64,000 nucleotides of DNA, taken from Eledone cirrhosa. Taxonomy: Eukaryota. The DNA lies in contig OZ024745.1 of the NCBI GenBank assembly GCA_964016885.1, forward strand, positions 88,164,001 through 88,228,000, in the 5' to 3' direction. Below, one piece after another: positions 17,373 through 59,573 of this stretch. The first letter of the stretch is position 1. Each line of letters opens with the position of its first letter. Under the pieces are notes generated by a model. That model made no database searches. It had not been told where the DNA came from and saw nothing but the letters and a program-made list of their open reading frames with translations. The translations under genes were made by a program, and so were the position numbers.

Positions 17373-17421
17373 CATACACACACATACACACATCTATATG
17401 TATATATCTCTATATATATAT

Positions 17422-19720
17422 TTCGTTTCTGAATTTGTTTAGCAAGATTCTTTATCTGAAATCGTGTGTTGAAACCGATATTGTTATACTTTGGGAGGGT
17501 CATGTTGCCAATAAGAAACACACGCACCAGTTACTTTCACTTCAATTTATTATATATTTATAAATTTATAAATTTACAAATCTACAAATTTATAAATTTC
17601 TGGTTGGTTGGTTGGTTCCACAACCAGATAGTTGTTTATACATAGTCATAGTCCTTTCGTCACACACTCTGTGACCTCTTCAGTGACTGGGGATTCCTCT
17701 CTTTGTTTCTGTACCTTTCCTTTCTTCTGTCCTACGCCATTTTGTTTGTGTGTGTGTTGTGTGCTCAGTTTGCGCATGCGCCACATCCGGGTGTCTGTGT
17801 GTGTTTGTGTTCATTTATCTATTTGTTTATTTATTTATTTACATGTTGTTGGTTGGTTGTTTTTTCTATGTGTGTGTGTGTTTTCATTTTGTCCTTAATT
17901 GTAAGTTGTGATGTTGCTGTTCCACTCATATTTTCTATTTAATTTTGGTTGTAATTCTTTTATGTTTACTGCCTCTGTAATTTGTCTAAACATTGCATCT
18001 TTTCTGTGTGTAGATTCTATTTTTATTTCTATGTTCTCTAATTTACCCTTGCGTTCTATCTTAGCATGTTGGTAGAGTATTCTTTAGATGATTCTTTATT
18101 ATCTTGAAGGTCTCGCCAGTGTCCATTTATCCGTTCCCCTATACTACGACAGCTTAACCCTGATAATGTACTCCCGCTACGTAGATGATATAAACATCGT
18201 AGTTAAGACACCCCCACTAGAGAACAGTCAGGAACTAGAGAAAAACACAATGGAAAGCATCCAGCAAATAGCAAACTCCATCCACCAGAGCATTAGAGTT
18301 ACTATAGACTACCCAAGTAGACACCCCAACCATCGATTACCTGTACTAGACACAGAGCTCTGGTTAGATACCATTAACAACCAAAAACAAATCCTCCATT
18401 CCCATTATGCCAAACCCATGACTTCCAAACATCTGATCCACCGAAACTCGGCCATTTCGGACCATACCAAAATCAACATACTGATTGCGGATTTGGTACG
18501 GGTGATGAGAAATGTGTCCCGCATGTGAAACCCCGAAAAACTAGGGAGACACATACAACACTTCATCCACCGTATGCAGTTCTCTGGCTACAATCAGAGA
18601 GATAGAATCAGAGTGTATAGAGGAGCCAGAACCAAATGGGAAAACATGGTAAATAATGATATAAATGGGACCTGCCCCTTTTACATGAGCAAATTTTGGA
18701 ATAGAATAGAAAGAACTAGGAACAAGGCCAATAGAATAAACTCATGGTATGATAGCAATAAATACCAGAGTGTAATGTTCATTGATACAACCCATAGAGG
18801 CGAACTAGTCTACAAATTTAGAAGGGCCCTAAATAAACATAAACTCAATATTAAGATAGTAGAAAGACCAGGTACCTCCGTAAAAACACTTATTAGCAAG
18901 ACATACCCGTTCCAAAGACCCTCATGTATAGATAAGAAATGTATAACCTGTAAAATAAGCCCACATGTTAACTGTAAAACTAGAAATGTAGTGTATAGCA
19001 TAAGATGTACTGAAGGACAATGTAGAGACAAAAATATAGTGTACATAGGTGAGACAGCTCGTGGTATAGGGGAACGGATAAATGGACACTGGCGAGACCT
19101 TCAAGATAATAAAGAATCATCTGTACTCTACCAACATGCTAAGATAGAACACAAGGGTAAATTAGAGAACATAGAAATAAAAATAGAATCTACACACAGA
19201 AAAGATGCAATGTTTAGACAAATTACAGAGGCAGTAAACATAAAAGAATTACAACCAAAATTAAATAGAAAATATGAGTGGAACAGCAACATCACAACTT
19301 ACAATTAGGGACAAAATGAAAACACACACACACATAGAACAAACAACCAACCAACAACATGTAAATAAATAAATAAACAAATAGATAAATGAACACAACA
19401 CACACACAGACACCCGGATGTGGCGCATGCGCAAACTGAGCACAAAACACACACACAGAAACAAAATGGCGTAGGACAGAAGAAAGGAAAGGTACAGAAA
19501 CAAAGAAAGGAATCCCCAGTCACTGAAGAGGTCACAGAGTGTGTGACGAAAGAACTATGACTATATATAAACAGCTATCTGGTTGTGGAACCAACCAACC
19601 AACCAGAAATTTATAAATTTGTAGATTTGTAAATTTATAAATTTATAAATATATAATAAATTGAAGTGAAAGTAACTGGTGCGTGTGTTTCTTATTGGCA
19701 ACATGACCCTCCCAAAGTAT

Positions 19721-25972: not shown

Positions 25973-28620
25973 GTCTCACTCGCTTTACGCGTTTTAATTG
26001 TCCTAATAACTTATTTTGGTTATTATTGCACCGAAGTGAGATATATGATTTTTAATGCAATGAAATATCTATGATCTTCGGCAAATCACTGATGAGGGAC
26101 TTATTTTATTACATGTTACCCATGTGCTACCTGCAGTATTTTTCTCTATATTTTAATACATATATTTACCACTGCGATTCTGTGTTTTTTCTCTCTCTCT
26201 TACTGTCCCCCCTTCTCTCTGTTTCTCCCCCTCTGTCTTGTCCGTTAACTCTTCCTCACACTTTCATTCACTCACTGTTTTTCTCCCTCTTCTCTTCATT
26301 TCATCCTGCACTCACGAACGCTATTTTTTCTCTCTCTGCTCATAGCCCTCGTTCGTGTAGGTTCTATTCTCTAAGCGCTCATATATTCACCTAGCTTATG
26401 CTAAACAGAATAATTTTTGAAGCTTGTTTCTCCCCTACGGTATGCTATATTTTCTGTTGTTCTCCTGTCTCACTCGCTTTACGCGTTTTAATTGTCCTAA
26501 TAACTTATTTTGGTTATTATTGCACCGAAGTGAGATATATGATTTTTAATGCAATGAAATATCTATGATCTTCGGCAAATCACTGATGAGGGACTTATTT
26601 TATTACATGTTACCCATGTGCTACCTGCAGTATTTTTCTCTATATTTTAATACATATATTTACCACTGCGATTCTGTGTTTTTTCTCTCTCTCTTACTGT
26701 CCCCCCTTCTCTCTGTTTCTCCCCCTCTGTCTTGTCCGTTAACTCTTCCTCACACTTTCATTCACTCACTGTTTTTCTCCCTCTTCTCTTCATTTCATCC
26801 TGCACTCACGAACGCTATTTTTTCTCTCTCTGCTCATAGCCCTCGTTCGTGTAGGTTCTATTCTCTAAGCGCTCATATATTCACCTAGCTTATGCTAAAC
26901 AGAATAATTTTTGAAGCTTGTTTCTCCCCTACGGTATGCTATATTTTCTGTTGTTCTCCTGTCTCACTCGCTTTACGCGTTTTAATTGTCCTAATAACTT
27001 ATTTTGGTTATTATTGCACCGAAGTGAGATATATGATTTTTAATGCAATGAAATATCTATGATCTTCGGCAAATCACTGATGAGGGACTTATTTTATTAC
27101 ATGTTACCCATGTGCTACCTGCAGTATTTTTCTCTATATTTTAATACATATATTTACCACTGCGATTCTGTGTTTTTTCTCTCTCTCTTACTGTCCCCCC
27201 TTCTCTCTGTTTCTCCCCCTCTGTCTTGTCCGTTAACTCTTCCTCACACTTTCACTCACTCACTGTTTTTCTCCCTCTTCTCTTCATTTCATCCTGCACT
27301 GACGAACGCTATTTTTTCTCTCTCTGCTCATAGCCCTCGTTCGTGTAGGTTCTATTCTCTAAGCGCTCATATATTCACCTAGCTTATGCTAAACAGAATA
27401 ATTTTTGAAGCTTGTTTCTCCCCTACGGTATGCTATATTTTCTGTTGTTCTCCTGTCTCACTCGCTTTACGCGTTTTAATTGTCCTAATAACTTATTTTG
27501 GTTATTATTGCACCGAAGTGAGATATATGATTTTTAATGCAATGAAATATCTATGATCTTCGGCAAATCACTGATGAGGGACTTATTTTATTACATGTTA
27601 CCCATGTGCTACCTGCAGTATTTTTCTCTATATTTTAATACATATATTTACCACTGCGATTCTGTGTTTTTTCTCTCTCTCTTACTGTCCCCCCTTCTCT
27701 CTGTTTCTCCCCCTCTGTCTTGTCCGTTAACTCTTCCTCACACTTTCATTCACTCACTGTTTTTCTCCCTCTTCTCTTCATTTCATCCTGCACTCACGAA
27801 CGCTATTTTTTCTCTCTCTGCTCATAGCCCTCGTTCGTGTAGGTTCTATTCTCTAAGCGCTCATATATTCACCTAGCTTATGCTAAACAGAATAATTTTT
27901 GAAGCTTGTTTCTCCCCTACGGTATGCTATATTTTCTGTTGTTCTCCTGTCTCACTCGCTTTACGCGTTTTAATTGTCCTAATAACTTATTTTGGTTATT
28001 ATTGCACCGAAGTGAGATATATGATTTTTAATGCAATGAAATATCTATGATCTTCGGCAAATCACTGATGAGGGACTTATTTTATTACATGTTACCCATG
28101 TGCTACCTGCAGTATTTTTCTCTATATTTTAATACATATATTTACCACTGCGATTCTGTGTTTTTTCTCTCTCTCTTACTGTCCCCCCTTCTCTCTGTTT
28201 CTCCCCCTCTGTCTTGTCCGTTAACTCTTCCTCACACTTTCACTCACTCACTGTTTTTCTCCCTCTTCTCTTCATTTCATCCTGCACTCACGAACGCTAT
28301 TTTCTCTCTCTCTGCTCATAGCCCTCGTTCGTGTAGGTTCTATTCTCTAAGCGCTCATATATTCACCTAGCTTATGCTAAACAGAATAATTTTTGAAGCT
28401 TGTTTCTCCCCTACGGTATGCTATATTTTCTGTTGTTCTCTTGTCTCACTCGCTTTACGCGTTTTAATTGTCCTAATAACTTATTTTGGTTATTATTGCA
28501 CCGAAGTGAGATATATGATTTTTAATGCAATGAAATATCTATGATCTTCGGCAAATCACTGATGAGGGACTTATTTTATTACATGTTACCCATGTGCTAC
28601 CTGCAGTATTTTTCTCTATA

Positions 28621-30298: not shown

Positions 30299-30434
30299 AT
30301 CTGTCAGCTTATCTCCCTTTGTTTGTTGAAAAAAGAAGTAAGTGACATAGTCAGTACTTTAAAATAATAGCGCAAGGGCTTCAAAATGTTTATAATTACG
30401 CATACAGTATATTGTCAAATATACTATATATATA

Positions 30435-30489
<55 letters not shown>

Positions 30490-30491
<2 letters not shown>

Positions 30492-32840
30492 CGTTTCTGA
30501 ATTTGTTTAGCAAGATTCTTTATCTGAAATCGTGTGTTGAAACCGATATTGTTATACTTTGGGAGGGTCATGTTGCCAATAAGAAACACACGCACCAGTT
30601 GCTTTCACTTCAATTTATTATAATAAATTTATAATAAATTTATAAATTTATAAATTTCTGGTTGGTTGGTTGGTTCCACAACCAGAAAGTTGTTTATATA
30701 TTGTCATAGTTCTTTCGTCACACACTCTGTGACCTCTTCAGTGACTGGGGGTTGCTTTCTTTGTTTCTGTGCCTCTCCTTTGTTCTGTCCTACGCCATTT
30801 TGTTTCTGTGTGTGTGTTGTGTGCTCAGTCTGCGCATGCGCCACATCCGGGTGTCTGTGTGTGTTTATGTTCATTTATTTATTTGTTTATTTACATGTTA
30901 CTGGTTGGTTGTTTGTTCTATGTGTGTGTGTGTTTTCATTTTGTCCTTAATTGTAAGTTGTGATGTTGCTGTTCCACTCATATTTTCTATTTAATTTTGG
31001 TTGTAATTCTTTTATGTCTATTGCCTCTGTGATTTGTCTAAACATTGCGTCTTTTCTGTGTGTAGATTCTATTTTTATTTCTATGTTCTCTAATTTACCC
31101 TTGTGTTCTATTTTAGCATGTTGGTAGAGTACAGATGATTCTTTACTATCTTGAAGGTCTCGCCAGTGTTCATTTATCCGTTCCCCTGCACCACGAGCTG
31201 TCTCACCTATGTACACTATATTTTTGTCTCTACATTGTCCTTCAGTACATCTTATGCTATACACTACATTTCTAGTTTTACAGTTAACAAGTGGGCTTAT
31301 TTTACAGGTTATACATTTCTTATCTATACATGAGGGTCTTTGAAAAGGGTATGTCTTGCTAATAAGTGTTTTTACGGAGGTACCTGGTCTTTCTACTATC
31401 TTAATATTGAGTTTATGTTTATCTAGGGCCCTTCTAAATTTGTAAGCTAATTCACCTCTAGGGGTTGTATCGATGAACATTACACTCTGGTATTTATTGC
31501 TATCATACCATGAGTTTATTCTATTAGCCTTGTTCCTAGTTCTTTCTATTCTATTCCAAAATGTGCTCCTATACAAGGGGCAGGTCCCATTTATGTCACA
31601 GTTCACCATTTTTTCCCATTTGGTTCTGGCTCCTCTATACACTCTGATTTTATCTCTCTGATTGTAGCCAGAGAACTGCATACGGTGGATGAAGTGTTGT
31701 ATGTGTCTCTCTAGTTGTTCGGGGTTGCACATCCGGGTCACGTTTCTCATCACCCGTACCAAATCCGCAATCAGTATGTTGATTTTGGTATGGTCCGAAA
31801 CGGCCGAGTTTCGTTGGATCAGATGTTTGGAAGTCATGGGTTTGGCATAATGGGAATGGAGGATTTATTTTTTGTTATTAATGGTATCTAACCAGAGCTC
31901 TGTGTCTAGTACAGGTAATCGATGGTTGGGGTGTTTACTTGGGTAATCTATAGTAACTCTAATGCTCTGGTGGATGGAGTTAGCTATTTGCTGGATGCTT
32001 TCCATTGTGTTTTTCTCTAGTTCCTGACTGTTCTCTAGTGGGGTGTCTTAACTACGATGTTTATATCATCAACGTAACGGGAGTACATTATCAGGGTTAA
32101 GGGGTCTTCTATTTGTTCTTTAAGTTTAAGTTTAAGCCTACTGTCCCACCATACCATGAATAAGTTAGCTATGTCGCCTGCAATGCTAACACCATTGTCT
32201 GCTCCTACCTCTTGGGCATATGTTTTTCCATTAAATTTGAACATATGTTCCTTAAGGGTTAGTTTTATGCTGGCCCCTACCGCATGTGCAATCATTTTCT
32301 TCAGTTCATCGTGGTTTTCGGGTGTCCGTATGGCTCTGGTCCACCCGTTCCATCTATCTGTGTGGGTTTTCTTGGCCATTGAGTTAATGGTAGGTGGTCT
32401 GTCTCTTGCTGGTCTTGTATGGCACATGTTGCTAAGGTCATATGTGTCTAGGTAATTATTACTATAGGTAAGTTTAAGTAGGAGTCCCAGCTCACTGGTA
32501 TCAATCCCACGGAACTCAACATTGCTCTCACTGATTATTTCTACGCATTTCTCCACAGCAAAATCCACGTCAATAGATGGATACAGGGACACAACATCCA
32601 TACTACCTATTATGCAGTTTGTTAGGTCCCTAGATCGGTTACTCTCGCCGATTCTGCTGAGGTCACAGAGTGTGTGACGAAAGAACTATGACAATATATA
32701 AACAACTATCTGGTTGTGGAACCAACCAACCAACCAACCAGAAATTTATAAATTTATAAATTTATTATAAATATATTATAATAAATTGAAGTGAAAGCAA
32801 CTGGTGCGTGTGTTTCTTATTGGCAACATGACCCAAGTAT

Positions 32841-32846
<6 letters not shown>
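30490..32846 (-). mobile_element. 5'-truncated Penelope-like element (Naiad-type), same family as 17422, with inverted pLTR piece at 32659-32846
   Basis: GSMDVVSLYPSID, YAQEVGADNG...ANLFMVWWD, YVDDI, frameshift near 32035, and an intact GIY-YIG ORF 30947-31837. Confidence 0.92.
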
Positions 32847-32873
<27 letters not shown>

Positions 32874-33160
32874 CTATAAATTATGTCCTTAGAATCATTT
32901 GATAAGATATATACTCAATTTCCTTTCCCAATTAGCATAATCAACCACACAAAAAACTAATTAAATGAGGCTATAAGATTAAAAGGCACCTGTGAAGAAA
33001 TAATAGATAAATAAACGATAGCCATCTATTCACGATCAACAGCCATAGAATATTTACCTACCATTTCCATAGCACGTGAAAATCGATTAAATATATCGTC
33101 AACCATACACAATTAGGTATAAAATTAAACTTAGACGAAAAAATTCATATACACTTACCA

Positions 33161-33255
33161 GAATTACGTTTCTACCCTTTAGGGTTTCGTTCGCTTTCGG
33201 AAATATCCTATCAAAGATAAATTCTCGAGCTTCGAACTCATCAGGAAACAAACTC
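33161..33255 (-). ncRNA. Canonical full type I hammerhead ribozyme
   Basis: GAGTTTGTTTC-CTGATGA-GTTCG...CGAAC-GAAA-CCC taaa GGG-TA-GAAACGTAATTC. All core nucleotides, G10.1-C11.1, a stable stem III and a GUA site are present. Confidence 0.88.
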
Positions 33256-33337
33256 ACTTGGATAAAGATTTTTCTTAAATGATCCCCGCCAGAAACGAAT
33301 TCAAAATGGCTAAGAACTGTGACGTGGTCAAGTCAGA

Positions 33338-33428
<91 letters not shown>

Positions 33429-36147: not shown

Positions 36148-38118
36148 GTGTTAAGGATACTGGGAGAAATAAAAACAAAAACAAAAATAAATAAGGAGAG
36201 GTAGATCGAGTAATATCTATCATACGAGGTGGGAGAGATAGGGGAGGGGTGAGATACAGGAGATAGAGTTAAAACAGCCGATACATAAGTCCCGTCAAAT
36301 GTAGAGGGAGGAGGAGAGGAGATATACTTAGAAATAAAAATGATAGTTTTAAAATATTATGTTTCATCAGTCTATCAATTCCTATGAATTATAATGTAAA
36401 TATCAATATTCATGAATGAGACACATATCAATAATGTGTGAAAAAATAATGACTATATGTTTAGTTTAAAATCATGAAAAAAGTTGCTGCAGACATAGAT
36501 TGAACTCAACTTTTAAATATAAATATAAATTTAAAATTTAGTATATTTACTTAAGACTTTTAATTACTTTTTAATTATTTTTTAATTATTTTAGAAAACT
36601 TGGCGATAAATCTTTCGATTCCTCCAATTCTTTAAACCTTCTTCATGAGTATATAATTAATAATGTAATTAAACTACCTTAAAATGCTGATGCTCCCAAA
36701 TCTATTGAATAACATTTTTAAGCTAGATAAACTTTTATAATAAATATAAGAGCATCTGTAGAACAACCGGGTAACCTAAAGTTTTTTTGAATGATTTCTG
36801 CTAAATAAGTTTGGTGAATAATTTTGGTTTTGTTTGCTTTCGATTCTGATTGCTTCTAATGAACTTGGCAATATATTGTCAAATAAATTGGAAGGATTGA
36901 TTGATATGCGGGGCACACTGTGTTTCTTACGGCCCTAGATATTCTGGGGAGTGAAATATTCTTGGCGTTTTTTAATATTTTAATATATTGATATCTGTTC
37001 TATTCTATGCTTGAACGATAATCATGTATGAGAGGGCAAGAATATTATTATTATTACTAATAATGTATATTTTATGTATATGTATGTATGTATGTACATA
37101 TATGTACGGTAAAATCTATTTTAACGCAATGAAGCTTTTCATGTGAAATACAAATTTACAGAGCTGTTCACGTAAGCTCACATATGTCTATAATGTCAAT
37201 TTGAGATAACCTTCTCTTTTTCTTTCTCTTTTTTCTTTTTCTCTTTTTTCATGAAAATACATATATACTTATGTATTTCAGTATTTTTTTGAAGCTTTAT
37301 CTCAGATTTTGATTGTAAACCTAAGAATTTTTAAACTAAACATATAGTCATTATTTTTTCACACATTATTGATATGTGTCTCATTCATGAATATTGATAT
37401 TTACATTATAATTCATAGGAATTGATAGACTGATGAAACATAATATTTTAAAACTATCATTTTTATTTCTAAGTATATCTCCTCTCCTCCTCCCTCTACA
37501 TTTGACGGGACTTATGTATCGGCTGTTTTAACTCTATCTCCTATATCTCACCCCTCCCGTATCTCTCCCACCTCGTATGATAGATATTACTCGATCTACC
37601 TCTCCTTATTTATTTTTGTTTTTGTTTTTATTTCTCCCCGTATCCTTAACACTAAATGAATAAATAAATAAATAAATAATTACAGTACCCCTTCCCTCAT
37701 AAATCTCTCATTTGGTGTCTTTCTCTTTACATACATTTCTTCATCTTCTTCACCTTCCGCTCTTTCTTTTCCTTTTTTCCTTCTTTTTCTTTTTTTCTTT
37801 TTTCTCCGTCTTTCTTTCTAACCGTCCTTAACATTCTCACTACCATAACAACTTTTTAAATGGAAGTTGTAAAATTTTTCAAGGTATGTCAAATTTATTT
37901 ATAAAACTGTTTATATATTGTATATTGTCTGAAGAGGGCATACCATATTTTTAATATGATATCCCTGAAATATATATAATGAAATAAATATGGTTTTATA
38001 AATGTAGTTTCCATTTGTTTAATATCGTAAAATACTCCAAAATCTGTTGAGTGCTTTTATATCAGTTATAAAATATTTACTCGTTGTAACCCAACAATTT
38101 TAAATAAAATTTTTGCAT
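35766..38118. mobile_element. Large fold-back element: about 705-bp inverted arms (35766-36470 / 37329-38029), about 860-bp spacer, right extension, in (TA)n
   Basis: Arms are near-identical reverse complements. Outer ends carry a decayed hammerhead core CTGAAGA-GGG...CCCT-GAAA-TATAT. Termini are homologous to the 42558 element. Confidence 0.88.
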
Positions 38119-45220: not shown

Positions 45221-46211
45221 ATAGGGTGAGGCTAACCTCTCGGTCGTTAATTACCTCGACGTTACCCTCAGTTGGTCCAATGGCTTGCACTTCCCGTATA
45301 GAAAGCCGAATGATACGCTTAATTACATAAGTAAGCATTCTAACCATCACGCCAGCATAACCAAGAACCTGGTAAGAAACGTTTCTTTGAGGCTTTTCTG
45401 TCTATCTACCAACGATCATATTTTCACCGACCATTCCACATATTACAATGAAGCTCTTGCTCGGAGTGGATTTGTCGATAAGGTAGCATATACAGAGTAT
45501 GAGAATAGGCCTAGGAAAAATAGATCCCGACGCATTATATGGTATAACCAACCATATAAAATGGAGGTGGCCACACCATTAGCTAAGATCTTTCTCTCCC
45601 TTATTATGAAGCATTTCCTCCCAGCACATAAATATAGTAACATTTTTAATAGAAATACCATTAAAATTTCTCACTCTACGACTCCTAACCTTGCAAATAA
45701 CATCACAGCTTCAAATTTAGCGAAATTACCAGGCCGTAGGAACACGTGAAACCCTGTAGCTAGTACTAACTGTAATTGTAGGAATCGGGTTGACTGTTCC
45801 CTATCCGGGAAATGCCTCTCTAGTAACATTGTCTACAAATGTAAGGTTGAAACACGCACGTCCCCTAGGTCCTACATAGGGTTAACCGCCAATAGATTCA
45901 AGCAGCGTCTTTACATGCATACCAATTCTTTTCTTAATCCTTCAAGAAGGAATATGACGTTACTTTCAGCTTATATCTGGAGTCTAAAAGACAACCACAT
46001 CCAATATAAGTTACACTGGGAGATCCTAGCTAAAGTAAGATGGTTTAACGGAAATAAAAGCCCATGTGACCTCTGCGTCGCTGAAGCGCTGGAAATACTC
46101 TACGCCAAAGACCACATCTTAAACAAAAAATCTGAGGCAATTTCGGCTTGTAAACATAAATTGCACAAAACCTTCCTGTACTACAGCCCCGCATTATACC
46201 CTAACGGATAG
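45221..46211 (+). mobile_element. Penelope-like element 3' fragment (RT thumb + GIY-YIG), Penelope/Poseidon-like
   Basis: PYRKPNDTLNYISKHSNH, IIWYNQPY, NCNCRNRVDC...NIVYKC...YIGLTANRFKQR, CDLCVAE, LNKKSEAISACKH. Confidence 0.88.
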
Positions 46212-58068: not shown

Positions 58069-59573
58069 AAATTTGGTGAGTCCAAGTGTGCATATTTGGC
58101 AGTAAAACGTGGAAGAGCTGTGCCCTCCTCTAGAAATGTAGAGATGAACTGCCTGACAATACAACCTCTACAGTCAGGTGACAACTACAGATATCTTGGA
58201 CAGGATGAGAATGTCAGATATGATGGACCCATAAATAAGGAGAGCACCAGAACTGAATACCTCAGAAGAGTAAAGAAAATATGATCATCAGACTGTCAGC
58301 GTACAACAAATACATTGCCCACAATACTTATGCTGTGCCAATTCTAAGGCCAACATTTGGTCTGCTGAACTGGTCATTGCAAGAACTAAGTGAGATGGAT
58401 GTTAGAACTCGCAAACAACTCAGTGTTACTGGGAACTTTAACATCAATGGTGATGTGGTTAGGCTACACTTCTCACGCAAGGAAGGTGGCTGGGGTCTAA
58501 AATCCATATTAACATCATATGAGACCCGGATAGTAACACTGAAGCAACATCTTCAACAGAGGAAAAAGGTTGGCAACCATCTTGCCCAGGTTTATGAGCA
58601 TGAAAAGAAATATATCATTAGAATAGCCACTGATCTGGAGGAGAGATATGGAATAAAGCGTGATATAAATCTCTCACACAGAGAAATCGGAATATCCTAT
58701 TCATTGTTCAAACAAGATGAAAAAATTGACCAATTTACAGAAAAAGTTGTGCATGGATACTTAAGACGTAAAACACAGACCATAGAGGGGATAAACCACT
58801 CAAAAAGGCTGGCATGGAGTTCCGAAAAGTTTATGACATCACACCTCTATGCAATACAGGAACAAGAACTCCCTACCAAATATCTGCTGCACAAAAGGGG
58901 AGGGCCATCAGCTGACAATAAATGTTGGCTATGTAAAACAATGATCGAGGATGTAAGCCACATTGTTTTCAGCTGCGAAAGAATGTCATCTCGCTACTAC
59001 CTCCCCATGAGACACGATGGGATAGCTAGAACCATCTGGAACGCACTTCGGAAAACAACATTAACAACAAACGAGGAAGAATATATTGAGACAGATGGCA
59101 CTAAGGAATACTGGTGGAACCTGAAAATAAAAACTGCCACCAAATTAAAGCACAACAGGCCTGATAATGTTGTTTGGGACCACACATTGAAAACGTGTTC
59201 TGTTGTGGAGATCAGCTGCCCGTTTGATGTAAACGTTGTCAGAAAAATATAGGAGAAGGAGGACATCTAAGGACCATTGATGAGGGGTTTACAAATCCAG
59301 TATCCAATATATACCTTTAGCTTCATACCCACCATTATTGGAGCTACGGGTTATATACCATCCCGCTTGGACCAAAGTATGACTGAACTTGGATTTACAG
59401 ACAAAGAGCGCAGCTCCCTAATTCATAGTCTACAAATGGCTGCGATAGCTGGCACCTTCAAAATTTGCAAAACATTCTTGGGATTCAAGGGGTGACAATT
59501 TCTTTTCTTTTACAACCTTGCCACAGGAAGGTGGTCGGTCAAAAAAATATACTCGAAATTAAGAGAAAGAGAT
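58069..59573 (+). mobile_element. 5'-truncated R4/Dong-like RLE retrotransposon, family C
   Basis: YRYLGQDE, RKEGGWGL, CWLCKTMIEDVSHIVFSC, RHD, NRPDNVVWD...EISCPFD, IPTIIGATG. Stops and frameshifts present. (CATA)n on both sides. Confidence 0.9.

What the first reader, a model, noticed from the sequence alone, without database searches (positions are those of the whole stretch)
33150..33338. Single-copy, fully canonical monomeric hammerhead bracketed by splice-donor motifs
Seen on the minus strand: CAA|GTGAGT overlaps the 5' strand of stem I. Then CTGATGA, stem II GTTCG/CGAAC with an extended inner hairpin (TCG/CGA, TATC/GATA), GAAA, stem III ACCC-taaa-GGGT, a GUA site (cut between 33173 and 33172) and an about 11-bp stem I, followed at once by CTG|GTAAGT. 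A YY1-like GCCATTTT lies about 50 nt upstream. Unlike the other motifs here, stem III is stable, so it should cleave as a monomer. No second copy or ORF occurs in the window. Inference: either the pLTR/intron start of an unseen PLE family or a domesticated ribozyme in which donor choice competes with cleavage.
Basis: partly seen in the sequence, partly recalled or inferred. Interest (0 to 1): 0.72.

Follow-up and report, generated by a model that had tools for sequence, protein, structure and literature searches.

The report
Multicopy hammerhead retrozyme with Penelope-type intron
This hammerhead motif is real but not unique: it sits in one truncated copy of a 685-base non-coding repeat present hundreds of times in this animal genome, and about one copy in sixteen begins at exactly the predicted cut, which likely records the RNA cutting itself in the cell before a Penelope-type enzyme likely copied it into DNA.

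Summary
The type I hammerhead is present as described (cut 33173/33172, minus strand), but it is neither single-copy nor domesticated. It lies in a 5'-truncated copy (33343-32869) of a 685-nt ORF-less unit with at least 357 genomic copies. Copies form head-to-tail partial tandems, end at two fixed points in (TA)n and often carry 5' inversions, the marks of Penelope-like (PLE) insertion. Two sister families (658 and 695 nt, 72-78% identical) keep all three stems through compensatory changes. This is a non-LTR retrozyme, likely a PLE pseudo-LTR that lost its ORF and kept a predicted 169-nt intron; no autonomous partner was found. The upstream donor is not conserved in the sisters, and the 'perfect' GTAAGT is private to this copy. 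Most useful result: 20 of 32 copies truncated in a 7-nt interval start exactly at the scissile bond, usually after a T, which suggests cleavage in vivo; about 94% of copies read through. An upstream decoy strand is predicted to block the fold in context. The RT-GIY-YIG ORF 184 nt downstream belongs to a different PLE. This scan noted cut-site starts before, for other families in this genome. Cleavage and splicing are untested.

The parts
32869..33343 (-). 5'-truncated copy (unit positions 205-685) of a 685-nt non-coding hammerhead repeat, family A; 92% identical to the L020 monomer
33161..33255 (-). Type I hammerhead motif: stem I (11 bp, one bulge), CUGAUGA, extended stem II, GAAA, 4-bp stem III with UAAA loop, GUA
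   Evidence: compensatory changes in families B and C
33172..33173 (-). Predicted scissile bond (after A33173); sister copies pile up with G33172 as their first base
32990..33158 (-). Predicted 169-nt PLE-type intron (donor GTAAGT here, GTATGT in other copies; acceptor TTCTTCACAG); retained in every genomic copy examined; splicing untested
33252..33257 (-). GTGAGT donor-like motif in the 5' strand of stem I; only TGAG is shared with families B and C, so likely a structural motif and not a donor
33289..33302 (-). Upstream strand complementary to the 3' strand of stem I and the cut site (predicted decoy); unchanged in 29 of 34 family A copies
33303..33327 (-). Promoter-like motifs: YY1-like GCCATTTT (kept in A, B and C) and CRE-like CCACGTCAC; the CCAAT-like box found upstream in full units is cut off in this copy. 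Motif names are recalled; promoter activity untested
32845..32868 (.). (TA)n tract at the fixed 3' end of the unit (likely the primer and target)
33344..33428 (.). (ATT)n tract at the truncated 5' end
30427..32848 (-). Neighbour, not part of the unit: broken PLE of another family (RT 32685-32035, RT end and GIY-YIG 31864-30947, own minimal hammerhead 30741-30705, inverted copy of its 3' end at 32848-32659)

Best explanation
This is one truncated copy of a multicopy, non-coding hammerhead repeat (a non-LTR retrozyme) that likely derives from the pseudo-LTR of a Penelope-like element and is likely copied into (TA)n tracts by a Penelope-type reverse transcriptase supplied in trans. Shown: copy number, tandem ORF-less unit, two fixed 3' ends, 5' inversions, covarying stems, excess of starts at the scissile bond, intron retention in DNA. 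Inferred mechanism: (1) Pol II transcribes tandem copies from the internal promoter-like region. (2) The hammerhead cuts part of the RNA; an upstream decoy strand probably keeps cleavage partial. (3) A PLE enzyme nicks (TA)n and starts copying at unit position 685, or 112 nt further on (the PLE 'tail'). (4) On a cut linear RNA it runs off the 5' end, giving 304-nt inserts that start at the cut (about 6% of copies), often with an extra T that fits untemplated addition. (5) On a re-ligated circle or an uncut multimer it reads through, giving the other 94% and the partial tandems. The window copy is a read-through product that stopped 177 nt upstream of the cut; with one hammerhead and no tail it is likely inert.
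For: Copies. Anatomy (78 independent copies from 95 loci): 70 end at unit 678-685, 5 at 104-121, 63 are followed by TA-rich DNA, 12 have a 5' inversion, 31 have a head-to-tail junction. Longest stop-free frame 79 aa. Families B and C keep all 15 core stem I pairs and all 14 stem II pairs across the three families with different letters (read by eye). Family B has 988 matches and a tandem array of about 30 kb. Cut-site starts: 22 of 23 truncated copies lack the element's A before the cut; over positions -2 to +4 the counts are 0, 1, 20, 5, 2, 2, 2 (counted by eye; binomial P 5e-10); family B 16 of 19. The base before the cut is T in 19 of 23, and in 14 of 15 with a clean (TA)n flank, 6 of them TT. 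Duplicated parts within one insertion are closer to each other (95.2%) than to other loci (91.6%) in 20 of 20. Tails, inversions, tandems, 5'-UTR introns and (TA)n bias are PLE hallmarks (PMC8557442, PMC11167929, PMC2377424).
Against: No cleavage, RNA or splicing data. No autonomous partner was found, so PLE mobilisation rests on insertion marks. The positional control for family A spans only -14 to +4. In family B a broad shoulder of starts lies at +3 to +19, so a stall near the ribozyme may add to the signal. Family C is inconclusive (6 matches, 3 of the 4 cut-site starts preceded by TA). In family B 0 of the first 100 listed matches start at the cut. The acceptor AG is broken in 3 of 14 family A rows, and the donor is shifted in C. 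Rfam finds no hammerhead. Earlier notes on two families of other genomes report no excess at the cut.
Confidence: 0.82

Rival explanations
1. The unit is the pseudo-LTR of an autonomous PLE whose ORF-bearing copies are rare or were not sampled; the copies seen are its truncated ends.
For: Layout of promoter-like motifs, hammerhead, intron and two RT start points matches pLTRs (PMC2377424, PMC11167929). An RT-GIY-YIG frame lies 184 nt downstream in the window. Only 78 of at least 357 copies were examined.
Against: 31 of 78 copies cross from unit end to unit start with no ORF between, and no same-strand PLE frame joins any copy upstream (nearest hit 226 nt away, 29 aa; 8 window peptides as queries). 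The neighbouring PLE has its own hammerhead and tail, a (TA)n tract separates the two, and its other window copies lack this unit. Families B and C are also ORF-less.
Confidence: 0.1
2. The element is as described, but the pile-up at the cut comes from the reverse transcriptase stalling at the folded ribozyme, and the RNA is not cut in vivo.
For: About 94% of copies read through. The hammerhead fold is disfavoured in context. Family B shows starts spread over +3 to +19. For an Anolis PLE, uncut RNA was the main substrate in vitro and no reads ended at the cut (PMC11167929).
Against: A stall at the base of stem III would be expected to copy the unpaired A first (inference), yet 22 of 23 copies lack it. 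The same nucleotide is used in family B, whose stem III is not predicted to form as a monomer. The peak falls on a G, which gains nothing from pairing with (TA)n, and exceeds the TA-favoured +1 position 20 to 5.
Confidence: 0.15
3. A domesticated single-copy ribozyme in a host transcript, where choice of splice donor competes with cleavage.
For: Intact core and a consensus GTAAGT donor in this copy.
Against: Hundreds of copies; ordinary 92% identity, 5' truncation and a 6-nt deletion; upstream donor absent from B and C; surrounded by simple repeats and transposon fragments, with no host ORF evident in 24000-64000.
Confidence: 0.02

Closest known systems
Metazoan non-LTR retrozymes (Cervera and de la Pena 2020, PMC7229834, parts 2-4 of 6 read; Li, Clavereau, Pollet 2026, bioRxiv 10.64898/2026.07.22.740005, parts 1-3 of 5 read)
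   Same: Type I hammerhead in each unit of an ORF-less, low-GC tandem repeat; monomers, dimers and long arrays; co-occurs with PLEs.
   Different: The unit is longer than the 170-400 nt invertebrate examples, though within the 51-972 bp range of the preprint. It carries a predicted spliceosomal intron and two fixed RT start points, and copies pile up at the cut; the parts read describe none of these. Circular RNA is not shown here.
PLE pseudo-LTRs: D. virilis Penelope (PMC2377424, passages), Anolis Poseidon PAc (PMC11167929, parts 1-2 of 4), overview in Craig et al. 2021 (PMC8557442, passages), PLE hammerheads (PMC4209133, parts 1-2 of 4)
   Same: Partial tandems, inverted 5' copy, a 'tail' between two RT start sites, AT-rich or (TA)n targets, hammerhead next to a retained intron.
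   Different: No ORF. The tail is about 112 nt against 30-40 bp. Family A has a 4-bp stem III, whereas metazoan PLE hammerheads are mostly minimal or palindromic (families B and C are palindromic). The intron starts 15 nt after the cut, whereas in Penelope the intron end overlaps helix I. For PAc no RNA ends were seen at the cut; here DNA copies start there.
R2 retrotransposons with a 5' HDV-like ribozyme (PMC6765202, passages; the match of 5' junctions to the cut is recalled)
   Same: A self-cleaving ribozyme can set the 5' end of the copied RNA.
   Different: Different ribozyme, autonomous element, fixed rDNA target; here only a minority of copies start at the cut.

Membership tests
Type I hammerhead ribozyme | Core CUGANGA, GAAA and NUH with three helices, open at helix I | tested here: met
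   stems kept by compensatory changes in B and C. Rfam models do not score it, perhaps because of the long stem II insertion (inference).
Type I hammerhead ribozyme | Self-cleavage 3' of NUH | not testable with these tools
   Indirect only: genomic 5' ends at that bond. Context folding disfavours stem I.
Non-LTR retrozyme | Type I hammerhead in each unit of a tandem repeat | tested here: met
   L020, 31 head-to-tail junctions, family B array. The window copy itself is a truncated monomer.
Non-LTR retrozyme | No protein-coding capacity | tested here: met
   Longest stop-free frames 79, 65 and 72 aa in A, B and C.
Non-LTR retrozyme | Dispersed multicopy, low GC, no LTR/PBS/PPT layout | tested here: met
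   the terminal repeat is a variable part of the unit itself. PBS and PPT were not searched for separately.
Non-LTR retrozyme | Expressed as linear and circular monomer RNA | not testable with these tools
   No usable RNA data (see Tried and rejected); read-through copies fit a circle or an uncut multimer equally.
Autonomous Penelope-like element | RT and GIY-YIG ORF between pLTRs | tested here: not met
   No ORF in the unit or joined to any of 78 copies; the adjacent ORF is another family.
PLE-mobilised element | Partial tandems, 5' inversions, tail with second start site, microsatellite target | tested here: met
PLE-mobilised element | Intron retained after retrotransposition | tested here: inconclusive
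   Donor and acceptor motifs present and 0 of 10 donor-variant copies are spliced forms, but splicing in RNA is not shown.
PLE-mobilised element | Sequence shared with the pLTR of an autonomous partner | tested here: inconclusive
   None found in the fetched loci or by one pattern search; the genome was not searched exhaustively.

The most novel reading that the evidence does not exclude
The genome holds a nucleotide-precise record that hammerhead-cut, uncapped, unspliced RNA is a direct template for Penelope-type reverse transcription. Cleavage 15 nt before the donor removes the cap and so blocks splicing of the first intron, which would explain why Penelope-like elements keep introns through retrotransposition, and an upstream decoy strand sets the split between cut and uncut RNA.
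Probability: 0.25. Interest if true: 0.72.

Novelty: new member of a known kind. Interest (0 to 1): 0.42.

Why it matters
As flagged, the locus is an ordinary dead repeat copy. The family is more useful. The role of hammerheads in PLE-type elements is open: Craig et al. call it unclear, Cervera and de la Pena proposed cleavage without in vivo evidence, and Frangieh et al. saw no RNA ends at the cut. Copies that start at exactly the scissile bond give sequence-level evidence that cut RNA is sometimes the template. An ORF-less unit that keeps promoter-like motifs, intron and both RT start points also supports the proposed PLE origin of retrozymes outside vertebrates, and offers a 685-nt substrate for testing how cleavage, splicing and copying interact.

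Tried and rejected
Rfam: nothing at gathering scores and no hammerhead at E up to 5. Sequencing runs: no RNA holder listed. Contigs of 4 runs of unknown kind, one study, were laid on a family A copy; none of the 15 joints shown (3 more not shown) matched the intron; this is no evidence on splicing, and the depth was not used as a copy number. Linking the hammerhead to the adjacent RT-GIY-YIG ORF: rejected, since it has its own hammerhead, tail and inversion, and a (TA)n tract lies between. Autonomous partner: two sister-family searches gave only ORF-less units (the output was cut, so I saw the unit in L130 and the ORF scan for only some of its 20 loci); a two-family DNA profile over L001-L100 and the window found only further sisters; a loose-end motif had 0 matches. 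Spliced genomic copies: 0 of 10. Family C replicate of the cut-site test: inconclusive. Upstream GTGAGT as a working donor: rejected. A decoy equivalent in B and C was not evident in the folds. Circle versus uncut multimer: within-locus identity fits both. Lunse et al. 2016 (PMC5785218) was not held, and the preprint's supplements were not seen; either may bear on the claim that cut-site starts are undescribed. Sequence look-ups in earlier scan notes found nothing for families A or B.

Full report
Observation. The minimum-energy and centroid folds of 33280-33150 are the hammerhead fold, though the energy is not unusual (z -1.11). My scan found it as the only strong type I motif among 5 candidates in the window; with stems of at least 6/5/3 bp it hit 0 of 200 first-order Markov windows. 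Rfam does not score it. There is no second copy in the window.

Copy number. A search of the window's genome (3.0 Gb) with 33100-33340 scored 40 of 2571 candidates; all 39 besides the window are 93-96% identical. An exact 25-mer over stem III has 55 matches on 17 contigs and its reversed control 0. The 19 bases after the cut have 357 matches. These are lower bounds.

The unit. Flanks differ from copy to copy. The shared sequence is a 685-nt monomer, seen in tandem in L020, with CUGA at unit position 310 and the cut at 381/382. Its longest stop-free frame is 79 aa. The window copy is positions 205-685 (33343-32869), 92% identical to the L020 monomer, between (ATT)n and (TA)n. From 95 family A loci, 78 independent insertions remained after merging near-identical ones. 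Of these, 70 end at 678-685 and 5 at 104-121, 63 are followed by TA-rich DNA, 12 have an inverted piece at the 5' end and 31 cross head-to-tail from 685 to 1. These loci were picked by sequence at the hammerhead, so they are not a random sample. Partial tandems, an inverted 5' copy, microsatellite targets and a tail are the PLE pattern (PMC8557442, passages). For an Anolis PLE the tail is the stretch between two internal RT start sites (PMC11167929). I read positions 685 and about 112 as those two sites (inference).

The neighbour. An RT frame (32685-32035) and an RT-end plus GIY-YIG frame (31864-30947) lie 184 nt downstream on the same strand (weak Pfam RVT_1 and GIY-YIG hits below cut-off). 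They are interrupted by stop codons. This element has its own minimal hammerhead (30741-30705), an inverted copy of its own 3' end (32848-32659) and further window copies at 92% that lack our unit. Its CxxxxCxxC linker fits Neptune or Nematis (clade not tested by a tree). It shares only the (TA)n target with our unit. With 8 PLE peptides from the window as queries, no same-strand PLE frame joins any of the 78 copies upstream.

Sister families. Family B is 658 nt and family C 695 nt; pairwise identities are 75.8, 72.0 and 78.4%. Both are ORF-less tandems. B is younger (97-100% among top hits), has 988 motif matches and forms an array of about 30 kb on C1. Stem I is GTTTC/GAAAC in A, GTCTC/GAGAT in B and ACTTC/GAGGT in C. 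Stem II is GTTCG/CGAAC, ATCC/GGAT and GTCCG/CGGAC. All these pairs are Watson-Crick or G-U (by eye; one representative per family). Stem III is ACCC-TAAA-GGGT in A but the palindrome ACC-AT-GGT in B and C, which is predicted to pair only as a dimer.

Splice motifs. The downstream donor is GTATGT in 13 of 13 other aligned rows and in all 100 listed matches, so GTAAGT is a private change. B keeps GTATGT; C has a GT about 11 nt nearer the cut. A pyrimidine tract with AG follows in all three families, giving a predicted 169-nt intron (33158-32990); the AG is intact in 11 of 14 family A rows. The upstream GTGAGT is TTGAG in B and C, so only TGAG is conserved, probably as part of helix I (inference). 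None of the 10 copies with a base other than A after the GT is a spliced form. This matches intron retention in PLEs and the 5' intron of Penelope (PMC2377424; PMC4209133), but splicing is not shown.

Folding in context. With 20 nt of flank, stem I pairs at 0.90-0.93; with 70 nt upstream it falls to 0. The cause is 33302-33289, which pairs with the 3' strand of stem I and across the cut. Forcing stem I costs 4.8 kcal/mol in the window copy and 0.6, 3.1, 0.6 and 1.8 in four others. The strand is unchanged in 29 of 34 copies, which may reflect descent alone. These models ignore tertiary contacts and co-transcriptional kinetics.

Starts at the cut. L020 and L023 begin at the cut, so I tested this genome-wide. 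Among the first 100 listed post-cut matches, 3 start exactly at the cut and 1 elsewhere in the 14 nt upstream. A pattern that excludes the two G's before the cut gave 25 matches; I dropped 2 as mutated intact copies. The pattern allows starts at -2, -1 and 0, yet 22 of the 23 lack the element's A at -1. Most are 304-nt inserts (382-685) between (TA)n tracts. A wider pattern gave 33 matches, 1 intact; the other 32 fall at -2 to +4 as 0, 1, 20, 5, 2, 2, 2 (counted by eye; P 5e-10 against an even spread). The base before the cut is T in 19 of 23, and in 14 of 15 copies with a clean (TA)n flank, 6 of which break the repeat phase with TT. That fits an RT adding untemplated A at the end of an RNA (inference). 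In family B, 19 of 22 matches are truncated and 16 of these lack the A, about 2% of copies. Against a simple reading: about 94% of family A copies read through the site; 0 of the first 100 B matches start there; B loci picked further downstream show two inverted arms at 0 but also starts at +3, +5, +5, +9, +10, +12, +16/+19, +34 and -14; family C is inconclusive; and family A was not measured beyond +4.

Template. Within 20 tandem insertions the duplicated parts are 95.2% identical to each other and 91.6% to other loci, higher in 20 of 20. That fits copying round a circle or from a homogeneous tandem transcript. Cut-site starts need a linear cut RNA, so both forms were probably used.

Comparison. 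The element meets the sequence criteria of animal non-LTR retrozymes (PMC7229834; bioRxiv 10.64898/2026.07.22.740005) and fails the ORF criterion for an autonomous PLE, while showing PLE insertion marks. I found no description of an intron-bearing retrozyme or of PLE or retrozyme copies starting at the hammerhead cut in the listings or in the parts read; the library is incomplete, one relevant paper was not held and the preprint's supplements were not seen. Craig et al. call hammerhead function in these PLEs unclear, and Frangieh et al. found no reads at the cut. The host is probably an octopus, from a recalled SINE and an earlier scan note; I did not test this.

Earlier scan notes, read after my tests. 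Several report retrozymes with PLE marks in this genome, three report excess starts at or just after the cut in other families, and two from other genomes report none. One of the latter led me to check for a downstream shoulder. These are unchecked AI notes and I do not count them as support.

Verdict. A real hammerhead in an ordinary, probably inert copy of a retrozyme family; not domesticated. The family-level record of starts at the cut is the part worth following. Interest 0.42.

Noticed in passing
window 30427-32848 (-), further copies 19814-18153 and 17384-18149: Broken PLE with RT, CxxxxCxxC linker and GIY-YIG, its own minimal hammerhead (30741-30705) and an inverted 5' copy; Neptune- or Nematis-like.
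   Followed up: partly
window 45225-46211 (+), 62951-61075 (-), 55751-55407 (-): Fragments of at least three more PLE-like RT or GIY-YIG frames; candidates for the enzyme that moves the retrozyme.
   Followed up: partly
window 37929-37978 (+), 42668-42611 (-), 48732-48681 (-), 54511-54448 (-): Four weaker hammerhead-like cores with AT-rich stems, from other repeat families.
   Followed up: no
G000:C1:92985992-93015759: Tandem array of about 30 kb of family B units, period about 657-665 nt, apparently with higher-order structure.
   Followed up: no
L075 1077-1734; L130: Sister families B (658 nt, young) and C (695 nt) with palindromic stem III; L061 holds a fragment of a possible fourth sister at 85%.
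   Followed up: partly
window 25504-24763 (-): Tc1/mariner-like transposase in two frames (HTH_Tnp_Tc3_2, E 7e-7, below cut-off).
   Followed up: no
window 26056-28370: Five tandem copies of a 494-bp unit, seen as repeated identical frames.
   Followed up: no
window 58257-59252 (+): 331-aa frame resembling the C-terminal part of a non-LTR retrotransposon (by eye).
   Followed up: no
L005-L008, L012-L014 (C12 17.0-17.5 Mb); L063-L066 (C25): Family A copies carried inside larger segmental repeats, with identical flanks.
   Followed up: no
L036: Tandem copy whose last unit has lost positions 365-545 including the cut site; it is the copy that extends furthest into the upstream unit.
   Followed up: no
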